Below are positions 36,374 to 38,200 of a DNA stretch of 64,000 nucleotides, piece after piece. The notes below the pieces were generated by a model, which did not search any database, was not told the DNA's origin, and saw only the letters and a list, made by a program, of their open reading frames with translations. The stretch spans positions 1 to 64,000 of IMG/VR virus record IMGVR_UViG_3300028908_000005; one strand, 5' to 3'. Position 1 is the first letter of the stretch. Every line of letters begins with the position of its first letter. Both the position numbers and the translations under genes were made by a program. Origin of the DNA: a virus.

Positions 36374-38200
36374 ACCATGCGATGCCTTGCCGAGCAGCGA
36401 CTAGCCGCGCCAAGCCCTACCTAGCCGTGCCAAACCTCGCCGGGCTCTGCCCAGCGTGGCCAAGCCAAGCCAAAAGAAATCCCAGCAGCCGCCGTTAGAC
36501 GACTGCTGGGCAATACCATGCAATACCGTGCCTTGCCCGGCAACGCCGCGCCTGGCCCCGCAGTGACAAGCCTTACCGTGCTCGAGAAGCCTACGAAGTC
36601 CCAGCAGCCGCCGTTAGACGGCTACTGGGCAATACCATGCAATACCGTGCAGTGCCCCGCAACGACTAGCCGAGCCATGTAGTGCCGGACCCCGCAGTGC
36701 CACACCATGCCATACCAGGAGAAATCCCAGCAGCCGCTGCTAAACGGCTACTGGGCAATACCTCACATCGCCGGGCAATACCTCGCATTGCCTCGCCGTA
36801 CCATACCGAGCCCAGCAATGCCTTACACTGCCTAGCGTTACCGTGCCCAGCCGTGCTCGAGAAGCCTACGAAGTCCCAGCAGCCGCCGTTAGACGGCTAC
36901 TGGGCGATGCCAAGCCTTGCTTCGGCAAGCGATGCTCTGCCTGGCCAGGCAACGCCCTGCCCAGCGCAGCCGCGCCTTGCCATAGCTGTTTTGCCACGCA
37001 CGACCCAGCCTTGCCATACTCTGCCAAACCACGGCTTGCCAGCTGAAATCCCAGCAGCCGCTGTCAAACGGCTACTGGGCAATACCTTGCAATACCATGC
37101 AATACCTCGCAATGCCCAGCATTACCTCGCACCGCAGTGCCTTGCCATACCTAACCTTGCGCTGCGCTACCATGCCTCGCCACCCCTCGGCGCGCCGTGC
37201 CGCTCTTGAGAGCAGCAAGCAGAAATCCCAGCAGCCGCCGCTAGACGACTACTGGGCAATACCATGCAATGCCGCGCAGTACGGCGCCATGCCCCGCCCA
37301 GCCTAGCGCAGCCGAGCCAAAAGAAATCCCAGCAGCCGCCGCTAGACGACTACTGGGCAATACCATGCAATGCCGTACACAGCCGTGCCAAACCTAGCCG
37401 AGCCATACCTGGCCTCGAACTGCCCTGCCCTACCGAGCCTAACCAAACCAGGCCGTGCCGTGTAAATCCCAGTAGCCGCCGCTAGACGACTACTGGGCAA
37501 TACCTTGCAATGCCGCGCAGTACGGTGCCATGCCCCGCCCGGCCGAGCCCAGCAAGGCCACGGCTCACCCTGCCGCGCCGAGTAAATCCCAGTAGCCGCG
37601 GTCAAACGGCTACTGGGCAGTACCTTGCATTGCCACGCAGCGCCGTGCAAAGCCGAACAATGCCATACACTGCGTCGCCAAACCCCGCCCCGCATTACCA
37701 AGCCGAACGATACCTAGCCGAACCACGCCCTGCCCATCTTGGCCAAGCCTCGCCGTATGAAGCCTCGGCAGCGGCGATTAAACCGTTGCCGAGTAATTGC
37801 CTTGCACCACCGGGGCAAGCCGAGCCTTGCACTGGCAGGCCGAACCCTGCAAAACCATGCCCATCCGGAGCATGCCGAGCCACGCAAATCCAAGCAGCCG
37901 CCGCTAGACGACTGCTTGGCAATACCTTGCAATGCCTGGCATCGCCAAGCCCAGCCCCGCCGTGCATCGCCATGACGAGCTGCCGCCGTGCCGGGCCACG
38001 CCGATCCGTGCCGTGGGCAAGCCGAGCCTTGCAGTTCCAGGCCGTGCACTACCAAACCTCGCCCTGCCGCGCCGAGTAAATCCCAGCAGCCGCGGTCAAA
38101 CGGCTACTGGGCGATATCATGCAATGCCGGACCTCACCAGACCTCGCCGGGCCTTACCAAACCCCGCCGGACCCGGCCTCGCCACACCTTGGCTTGCATC
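36374..38200 (-). ncRNA. guide-RNA-like array: 13 tracts of 5-nt-periodic GGY-NN units separated by 12 conserved 30-nt hairpins (VIPR vrRNA-like)
   Basis: The plus strand reads (RCC-NN)n in phase, e.g. 13 consecutive RCC units at 38126-38190. Hairpins start at 36481, 36600, 36726, 36875, 37050, 37227, 37328, 37468, 37588, 37764, 37890 and 38082. G-U wobbles and compensatory changes favour minus-strand RNA. Confidence 0.85.

What the first reader, a model, noticed from the sequence alone, without database searches (positions are those of the whole stretch)
36481..38111. The 12 array hairpins show covariation and strand-specific G-U pairs
The minus-strand consensus is CCCAGYAGYCG-UY-URRC-RG-CGGCUGCUGGG followed by A(U/C)UU. 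Most variants are C/A mismatches on plus but U-G wobbles on minus. The loop-closing pair swaps C-G (36481, 36600) for U-A (36726, 37050). Copy 37890 has a compensatory CCAAG/CTTGG change. Copy 37764 rewrites much of the stem (CTCGGCAGCGG/CCGTTGCCGAG) but keeps the length and all but one pair. This indicates selection on RNA structure, co-oriented with the RAMP gene. Inference: the hairpins are processing signals or 3' protective caps. No Cas6 is present, so a host RNase or the RAMP itself would cut.
Basis: seen in the sequence. Interest (0 to 1): 0.7.

Follow-up and report, generated by a model that had tools for sequence, protein, structure and literature searches.

The report
Hairpin tails of phage VIPR guide RNAs
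The 12 hairpins are real, strand-specific RNA structures that form the 3' tails of guide RNAs in a phage VIPR system (a CRISPR-related RNA-guided DNA silencer first described in 2026), so this is a new example of a known kind.

Summary
There are 12 copies of a 30-nt hairpin (13-bp stem, tetraloop). On the minus strand 97.4% of stem cells pair, against 82.7% on the plus strand. The minus strand has 24 G-U cells and 5 pairs with compensatory double changes. All 12 hairpins form in the fold of the whole 1.9-kb RNA.

The locus is a VIPR system (bioRxiv 10.64898/2026.04.26.720920). The gene just upstream (38212-38805, minus) is a Vipr protein: its family profile matches PDB 36pp 'SUSP1 Vipr protein' at E 9e-12, and its model has a Cas7/Csm3 fold. 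The stretches between hairpins are YNNGG pentamer tracts, which are the guides.

The pentamer phase is fixed relative to the hairpin downstream (55 of 60 GGY) and not to the one upstream. Each hairpin is therefore the 3' tail of the preceding guide, like the published 3' pseudoknot that caps SUSP1 vrRNA.

Related loci carry hammerhead ribozymes, long hairpins or a bare GG-AUUU at the same position, which fits a role in guide biogenesis. Nine of 12 hairpins are followed by GG|AUUU, the RNase E motif.

Which enzyme cuts, and where the RNA ends lie, is untested. No RNA data could be reached.

This scan has already noted VIPR loci in at least 62 other genomes, two of them with simple hairpins between guides.

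The parts
38212..38805 (-). vipr gene (197 aa; RAMP/Cas7-like Vipr protein). The listed ORF runs to 38814 from a GTG; the database copy starts at the ATG at 38805.
   Evidence: phmmer hits PDB 36pp_D 'SUSP1 Vipr protein' at E 1.2e-5. The family profile A3 hits the same chain end to end at E 9.2e-12. The AF2 model (pLDDT 78) hits Csm3/Cas7 chains at E about 1e-6. It also matches phrog_4652 and has more than 1600 homologues.
36374..38190 (-). vrRNA array: 13 YNNGG (GGY-NN) pentamer tracts and 12 hairpin tails.
   Evidence: GGY tracts occur only here and only on the minus strand in the whole 92-kb record. Units are laid out.
38082..38111 (-). hairpin tail 1 (12 bp plus U/C, loop UUGACC), followed by AUUU
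37890..37919 (-). hairpin tail 2 (compensated A-U at pair 3), followed by AUUU
37764..37793 (-). hairpin tail 3, the divergent copy. It has three compensated pairs, one A/C mismatch and a pentamer phase shifted by 1. AAUUA lies before it and GCUU after it.
   Evidence: 58 bits with model R1
37588..37617 (-). hairpin tail 4 (U-A at pair 6), preceded by 28 in-phase units
37468..37497 (-). hairpin tail 5
37328..37357 (-). hairpin tail 6, followed by AUUUCUUUU (terminator-like)
37227..37256 (-). hairpin tail 7 (terminator-like)
37050..37079 (-). hairpin tail 8 (U-A loop-closing pair)
36875..36904 (-). hairpin tail 9, followed by ACUU
36726..36755 (-). hairpin tail 10 (U-A loop-closing pair; terminator-like)
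36600..36629 (-). hairpin tail 11, followed by ACUU
36481..36510 (-). hairpin tail 12, followed by AUUUCUUUU (terminator-like)
36374..36470 (-). 13th tract, without a hairpin. It ends GCAUCGCAUGGUUAUUUUC, which is the usual tail sequence minus the hairpin.
   Evidence: compare the hairpin-less relatives such as L002
38112..38127 (-). Example of the conserved 16 nt (GCAUUGCAWGGUAUUG: three degenerate units) that precedes every hairpin in phase.
   Evidence: alignment A1

Best explanation
The hairpins are the conserved 3' tail modules of guide RNAs (vrRNAs) in a phage VIPR system.

Shown here:
- The minus strand carries vipr, followed directly by 13 YNNGG pentamer tracts.
- Twelve of the tracts end, in fixed phase, in three conserved degenerate units, a 13-bp GC-rich hairpin and A(U/C)UU.
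- The hairpin is kept as an RNA structure on that strand.

Inferred from the published system: Vipr protomers coat the single-stranded GGY-NN tract, and the variable NN dinucleotides read target DNA with a 1-nt skip. [quoted passage not shown]

Inferred, not shown: vipr and the array are made as one precursor. An endonuclease cuts in the single-stranded A/U-rich stretch just 3' of each stem; GG|AUUU fits the RNase E motif RN|WUU. The hairpin then blocks 3'-to-5' exonucleases and so fixes the mature 3' end. Some hairpins with a better U tract may also terminate part of the transcription.
For: Vipr identity:
- Profile match to PDB 36pp SUSP1 Vipr at E 9.2e-12, end to end.
- The single sequence matches at E 1.2e-5, with the G-loop GLGDFRP aligned to GVGDWRP.
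- Cas7/Csm3 fold.

Guides:
- GGY tracts lie only on the vipr strand and only in this array.
- The same arrangement occurs next to vipr homologues in most of 128 related loci.

Structure:
- 97.4% against 82.7% of cells paired, 24 G-U cells, 5 compensated pairs.
- Consensus energy -25.4 against -10.1 kcal/mol.
- All 12 hairpins form in the minimum-energy fold of the 1875-nt RNA, with pair probability 0.83-1.0.
- The covariance model scores 58-82 bits on minus against 13-17 bits on plus.

The tail is 3' of its tract:
- 55 of 60 GGY within 45 nt upstream of a hairpin share one phase. Phase relative to the preceding hairpin splits 27/25/8/3.
- The conserved sequence extends 16 nt on the 5' side and only 4 nt on the 3' side.
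- The literature describes a tract followed by a conserved structured 3' tail that caps the RNA.

Processing:
- The first tract starts about 20 nt after the vipr stop.
- There is no minus-strand promoter-like site in the array.
- Type II hammerheads sit right after tracts in L189 and L025.
- GG-AUUU is the commonest tract end across the clade: 49 of 249 ends fit RN|WUU, against a 1.1% background.
- The RNase E motif comes from PMC5222698.
Against:
- All covariation comes from paralogous copies in one array, some of them recent duplicates, so there are few independent events (about 6).
- Copy 37764 folds slightly better on the plus strand.
- Two copies have ACUU and one has GCUU. These lack the U at +2 that RNase E prefers, and the host (hence its RNase set) is unknown.
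- Tracts run up to 28 units and whole units are 101-192 nt. This is longer than the published 9-16 repeats and under 100 nt, so further 5' trimming or internal ends are possible.
- No target was found for the best guide.
- No accessory (vap) gene was recognised.
Confidence: 0.8

Rival explanations
1. The hairpins are mainly intrinsic terminators or attenuators. Each guide ends by termination rather than by cleavage, which gives a falling gradient of guide levels along the array.
For: Four of 12 hairpins pass a simple terminator scan: a 13-bp GC-rich stem followed by AUUUCUUUU or similar. Relatives with single guides often end in clean terminator-like hairpins (L038, L059, L062/L066).
Against: Eight of 12 have poor U tracts (AUUUAC, ACUUCG, GCUUCA). 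No promoter-like sites lie between hairpins on the minus strand, so efficient termination would silence the 11 downstream guides. This reading is not exclusive of the tail reading.
Confidence: 0.15
2. Vipr itself, a RAMP protein, recognises the hairpin and cuts at its base, as Cas6 does on CRISPR repeats. No host nuclease would then be needed.
For: Cas6 is also a RAMP, and it leaves the repeat hairpin at the 3' end of type I-E/I-F crRNAs (established knowledge). No Cas6 family is present in the record. The papers read here name no processing enzyme.
Against: Vipr resembles Cas7/Csm3, not Cas6. Close relatives use hammerheads or no hairpin at all at the same position. A protein-specific hairpin-cutting activity is therefore not a conserved feature of the family.
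Confidence: 0.08
3. The hairpin is a 5' handle of the tract that follows it, not the 3' tail of the tract before it.
For: The array has 13 tracts and 12 hairpins, so counting alone cannot decide. The last hairpin is followed by a tract.
Against: The pentamer phase is locked to the downstream hairpin and not to the upstream one. The conserved units lie on the 5' side of the hairpin. The 13th tract ends in the same tail sequence minus the hairpin. The published vrRNAs carry the tail at the 3' end.
Confidence: 0.04
4. The hairpins are DNA-level palindromes, such as REP- or MITE-like elements, recombination sites or CRISPR repeats, with no RNA role.
For: They are repeated palindromes in a noncoding stretch. 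Units show duplication (D7).
Against: The strand asymmetry is strong: 24 G-U cells on minus are mismatches on plus. The 'spacers' are 71-162 nt long and pentamer-periodic. The hairpin occurs nowhere else in the record.
Confidence: 0.02

Closest known systems
VIPR type II vrRNA of Escherichia phage SUSP1 (bioRxiv 10.64898/2026.04.26.720920; cryo-EM 10.64898/2026.04.26.720927; PDB 36pp)
   Same: A Vipr RAMP protein of about 200 aa. Guides are built of YNNGG pentamers on the vipr strand. Each tract is followed by a conserved structured 3' tail that caps the RNA. The system is phage-borne.
   Different: The tail here is a plain 13-bp hairpin plus AUUU, not a roughly 40-nt pseudoknot. There are 12-13 guides in one array, against 4. 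Tracts reach 28 units, against 9-16. No vap gene was recognised. Vipr is only about 25-34% identical to the cultured-phage proteins.
Hammerhead-interspersed VIPR arrays (fig. S19 of 10.64898/2026.04.26.720920; found here in L189 and L025, whose Vipr proteins are about 60-62% identical to this one)
   Same: A structured RNA element sits between successive tracts in the same Vipr family. After hammerhead cleavage the upstream guide should also keep a small 3' hairpin (stem III); this is inferred from the known cleavage site.
   Different: The window element has no ribozyme core and no Rfam match, so it needs a protein nuclease or termination.
CRISPR repeat hairpins of type I-E/I-F cut by Cas6e/Cas6f
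   Same: A repeated hairpin in an array next to a RAMP gene. The proposed cut is at the 3' base of the stem, so the hairpin stays on the 3' end of the guide.
   Different: No Cas6, no cas1/cas2 context, variable-length pentamer-coded guides instead of contiguous spacers, and no acquisition machinery.
3' stabiliser hairpins with RNase E processing of polycistronic RNAs and 3'UTR-derived sRNAs (PMC5222698)
   Same: A stable stem followed by a single-stranded RN|WUU site. The stem blocks 3' exonucleases after the cut.
   Different: Here the elements would release a set of protein-bound guide RNAs. Whether the host has RNase E, and whether it acts here, is unknown.

Membership tests
VIPR system | Vipr protein: a small RAMP (RRM core, G-loop, thumb) homologous to the SUSP1 Vipr | tested here: met
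   Profile A3 against PDB 36pp_D: E 9.2e-12 over residues 1-185. Single sequence: E 1.2e-5. Foldseek: Csm3/Cas7 chains at E about 1e-6.
VIPR system | vrRNA made of tandem YNNGG (GGY/NN) pentamers with conserved GGY and variable NN, next to vipr and on its strand | tested here: met
   There are 16 tract segments, all on the minus strand at 36404-38188 and none elsewhere in 92 kb. The same layout occurs in related loci.
VIPR system | A conserved structured tail 3' of the tract | tested here: met
   There are 12 hairpins with covariation. The pentamer phase is locked to the downstream hairpin.
VIPR system | Accessory gene (vap) beside vipr | tested here: inconclusive
   None of six neighbouring ORFs is conserved beside vipr in 80 related loci. 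Pfam, NCBIfam, PHROGs and the Atlas gave no DNA-binding or nuclease call. The paper says a vap is 'typically' present, not always.
VIPR system | Carried by a phage or provirus | tested here: met
   IMG/VR virus record. Large terminase matches phrog_675 at E 1e-46.
VIPR system | Guides match DNA targets by the 1-nt skip rule | tested here: inconclusive
   Two 10-unit windows of guide 1 gave no exact match in IMG/VR. Matches to the phage's own genome are no better than shuffled guides (partial run).
VIPR system | vrRNAs are expressed and bound by Vipr | not testable with these tools
CRISPR array | Unique spacers of near-constant length between identical repeats, with Cas6 or other cas genes | tested here: not met
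   Inter-hairpin stretches are 71-162 nt and pentamer-periodic. There are no Cas6 Pfam matches in the record.
Intrinsic terminator | GC-rich stem followed by a U tract | tested here: inconclusive
   Four of 12 copies pass the scan; the rest have weak U tracts.
Self-cleaving ribozyme (hammerhead and others in Rfam) | Match to a ribozyme covariance model | tested here: not met
   There is no ribozyme match in 34000-41000 at E up to 1. Relatives L189 and L025 do match RF02276.

The most novel reading that the evidence does not exclude
In this large uncultured Vipr clade the element after each guide is an interchangeable 'end-forming cassette'. It can be a bare GG-AUUU, a simple hairpin plus AUUU (this phage), a long hairpin, or a hammerhead. 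The window's hairpin would be a ribozyme-free solution that recruits a host RNase E-type cut, or is cut by Vipr itself. If Vipr cuts, that would link Cas7-like and Cas6-like activities in an ancestral RAMP.
Probability: 0.1. Interest if true: 0.65.

Novelty: new member of a known kind. Interest (0 to 1): 0.3.

Why it matters
VIPR was described only in 2026, and the papers read here do not say how arrays are cut into single guides. This locus gives a clean natural test case. It has 12 near-identical hairpin tails with natural compensatory variants, one hairpin-less guide in the same array as an internal control, and relatives that use ribozymes at the same position. It can be used to find out what defines vrRNA 3' ends and whether a simple hairpin can replace the SUSP1 pseudoknot, which would help in designing compact multiplexed guide arrays. 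As a kind of element, however, it is already known.

Tried and rejected
- Exact hairpin search in IMG/VR: 0 hits.
- Relaxed hairpin pattern in metagenome contigs: 80 loci listed of the 89 stretches reported, none with GGY tracts, so these are chance matches.
- Covariance model R1 over 99 related loci: nothing significant, best 18 bits. No cross-genome covariation could therefore be obtained.
- Rfam on the window: no family.
- Target search for guide 1 by the 1-nt skip rule: two 10-unit patterns in IMG/VR gave 0 hits.
- Self-target check: no better than shuffled. The script stopped part-way on a parsing error.
- vap search: the neighbours are not conserved and the Atlas was uninformative.
- Supplementary files of the VIPR paper are not held, so the VIPR type (I-VII) could not be assigned.
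- Pseudoknot idea rejected: the loop is only 4 nt.
- RNase III idea rejected: a 13-bp stem is shorter than its usual substrates (established knowledge).

Full report
**What is in the sequence**

Between 36374 and 38190 the minus strand carries an array. A 30-nt element recurs 12 times, at plus-strand starts 36481, 36600, 36726, 36875, 37050, 37227, 37328, 37468, 37588, 37764, 37890 and 38082. Start-to-start spacing varies from 101 to 192 nt.

On the minus strand each copy reads like CCCAGUAGCCGUC-UAAC-GGCGGCUGCUGGG, a 13-bp stem with a tetraloop. It is preceded by 16 conserved nt (GCAUUGCAWGGUAUUG). It is followed by AUUU in 9 copies, ACUU in 2 and GCUU in 1.

**Check of the observation**

With the 13-pair structure imposed on the alignment of the 12 copies:
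- The minus strand has 97.4% of 156 cells as standard pairs and 5 pairs with changes on both sides. No shuffle out of 500 reaches the observed pairing or covariation score. Every slid control is far lower.
- The same columns on the plus strand give 82.7%.
- The difference is the 24 G-U cells on minus (pairs 6-25, 9-22 and 12-19), which are C/A mismatches on plus. Only one cell goes the other way (copy 37764, pair 8-23).

Other measures agree:
- RNAalifold predicts the full 13-bp helix at -25.4 kcal/mol on minus, but only 9 pairs at -10.1 kcal/mol on plus.
- Single hairpins fold at -22 to -25 kcal/mol on minus in 11 of 12 copies, against -9.8 to -21 for their plus-strand versions.
- All 12 hairpins appear in the minimum-energy fold of the whole 1875-nt minus-strand RNA, with mean stem pair probabilities of 0.83-1.0.

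The caveats:
- The loop-closing pair is a U/C mismatch in three copies.
- Copy 37764 is slightly more stable on plus.
- The copies are paralogues in one array, and some are recent duplicates. The compensatory changes therefore amount to roughly six events, not dozens.

**What the locus is**

A note from the first stage, seen, called the locus 'VIPR-like'. I checked that lead against the literature and the sequence.

Three 2026 preprints describe VIPR (Viral Interference Programmable Repeat) systems. These consist of a small RAMP protein, Vipr, and vrRNAs made of 9-16 YNNGG repeats followed by an invariable structured 3' tail. [quoted passage not shown] The variable NN dinucleotides read double-stranded DNA with a 1-nt skip.

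The ORF directly upstream of the array (38212-38805, minus, 197 aa) is a Vipr:
- phmmer finds PDB 36pp 'SUSP1 Vipr protein' at E 1.2e-5, with the G-loop GLGDFRP aligned to GVGDWRP.
- A profile of 32 homologues finds the same chain end to end at E 9.2e-12.
- An AlphaFold model (pLDDT 78) hits Csm3/Cas7 backbone subunits at E about 1e-6.

The family is large, with more than 1600 proteins in metagenomes. It is only 25-34% identical to the Vipr proteins of cultured phages.

The record is an IMG/VR phage fragment of 92 kb, estimated about 44% complete, with a large terminase.

The stretches between hairpins are YNNGG tracts. A scan for phased GGY finds them only on the minus strand and only in this array in the whole record. 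In 128 related loci such tracts lie almost always on the vipr strand, right beside vipr.

**Which guide does a hairpin belong to?**

There are 13 tracts and 12 hairpins, so counting does not decide.

Phase does. Of 60 GGY triplets within 45 nt upstream of a hairpin, 55 share one phase, so a YNNGG unit ends exactly where the stem begins. The five exceptions all lie before the divergent copy 37764. Phase relative to the preceding hairpin splits 27/25/8/3.

Two further points agree:
- Conservation extends 16 nt to the 5' side of the stem but only 4 nt to the 3' side.
- The 13th, hairpin-less tract ends GCAUCGCAUGGUUAUUUUC, which is the usual tail with the hairpin left out.

The hairpin is therefore the 3' tail of the tract before it, as in the published vrRNA design.

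**How it probably works**

Shown: RNA-level selection, the strand, adjacency to vipr, and phase locking.

Taken from the published system: Vipr protomers coat the single-stranded tract, and the structured tail caps the 3' end.

Inferred here: the array is made as a precursor together with vipr.
- The first tract begins about 20 nt after the vipr stop codon.
- No promoter-like site lies on the minus strand within the array.

The comparative picture supports a role of the inter-guide element in forming RNA ends. Relatives in the same Vipr family show these arrangements:
- Some separate guides by a bare AAGG-AUUUUAG (L002).
- Others use type II hammerhead ribozymes placed right after the tract (L189 twice, L025; RF02276).
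- Others use a conserved hairpin of about 60 nt (L212-L214, L220).
- Single guides often end in terminator-like hairpins.

Across 249 distinct tract ends, 49 fit RN|WUU right after the last GG, against a 1.1% background. In the window, 9 of 12 stems are followed by GG|AUUU, which fits the in vivo RNase E motif RN|WUU with its key U at +2 (PMC5222698).

My reading is a cut in the A/U-rich single strand just 3' of the stem, with the stem then blocking 3' exonucleases. Four hairpins with better U tracts also look like weak terminators.

None of this has been tested on RNA.

**What does not fit neatly**

- Units are 101-192 nt long and one tract has 28 in-phase units. This exceeds the published 9-16 repeats.
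- Three long tracts contain two or three phase blocks and a partial duplication.
- Copy 37764 has a different layout (AAUUA before the stem and no AUUU after it) and folds better on plus.
- No accessory gene was recognised.
- No target was found for the cleanest guide.

**Comparison and novelty**

By the features tested here, this is a member of the VIPR family. The tail is a simple hairpin rather than the SUSP1 pseudoknot, and the array is large. However, the papers already state that tails and array architectures vary between clades.

The exact hairpin was not found elsewhere.

This scan had already noted VIPR loci in at least 62 other genomes. Two of those notes mention simple hairpins between guides. 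I did not check those notes.

I rate this finding as a new member of a known kind. The remaining open question, what makes the vrRNA ends, is of moderate interest.

Noticed in passing
L212:4700-5500, L213:4700-5500, L214:4700-5600, L220:4600-5000: VIPR arrays in Chloroflexota MAG loci (Vipr 38-40% identical). They carry a conserved long hairpin of about 60 nt (CUCCCUGAC..GCCUUUUGG..CCAAAGGGC..GUCAGGG) after each tract. It has no Rfam match and could be an undescribed tail or processing element.
   Followed up: partly
L189:3730-3794, L189:3862-3926 and L025:4790-4854: Type II hammerhead ribozymes (RF02276, above the gathering score) sit directly 3' of GGY tracts in loci whose Vipr is about 60-62% identical to the window's.
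   Followed up: yes
L034:340-2240 (the same DNA as L197): An array of 14-16 guides separated by GG-UUUUUU-GAGGGG...AUAAUAAUAUAC. The AT-rich part looks like a -10 box, so each guide may have its own promoter.
   Followed up: no
window 39487-40110 (-): An RNase H-like ORF (phrog_531, E 6.5e-5; weak NCBIfam RNase HI) lies two genes upstream of vipr. It is not conserved beside vipr in relatives.
   Followed up: partly
window 36342-36350 (-): TGTTATAAT, a perfect extended -10 box, lies between the end of the array and the ATG at 36303 of the next minus-strand ORF, which has an AGGAGG ribosome-binding site. That gene probably has its own promoter.
   Followed up: no
window 37618-37763 (-): This tract has 28 pentamer units in one phase, about twice the published maximum of 16.
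   Followed up: no
window 37920-38081 and 36905-37049 (-): These long tracts hold two or three phase blocks. The stretch 38015-38069 is 78% like 37813-37867, which suggests unit duplication and loss of a tail.
   Followed up: partly
window 36481-38111: The hairpin is exactly 30 nt, which is six pentamer lengths. Its last five bases, CUGGG, fit YNNGG and are followed by AUUU, as at hairpin-less tract ends in relatives. The hairpin looks like an insertion into the ancestral GG-AUUU junction.
   Followed up: partly
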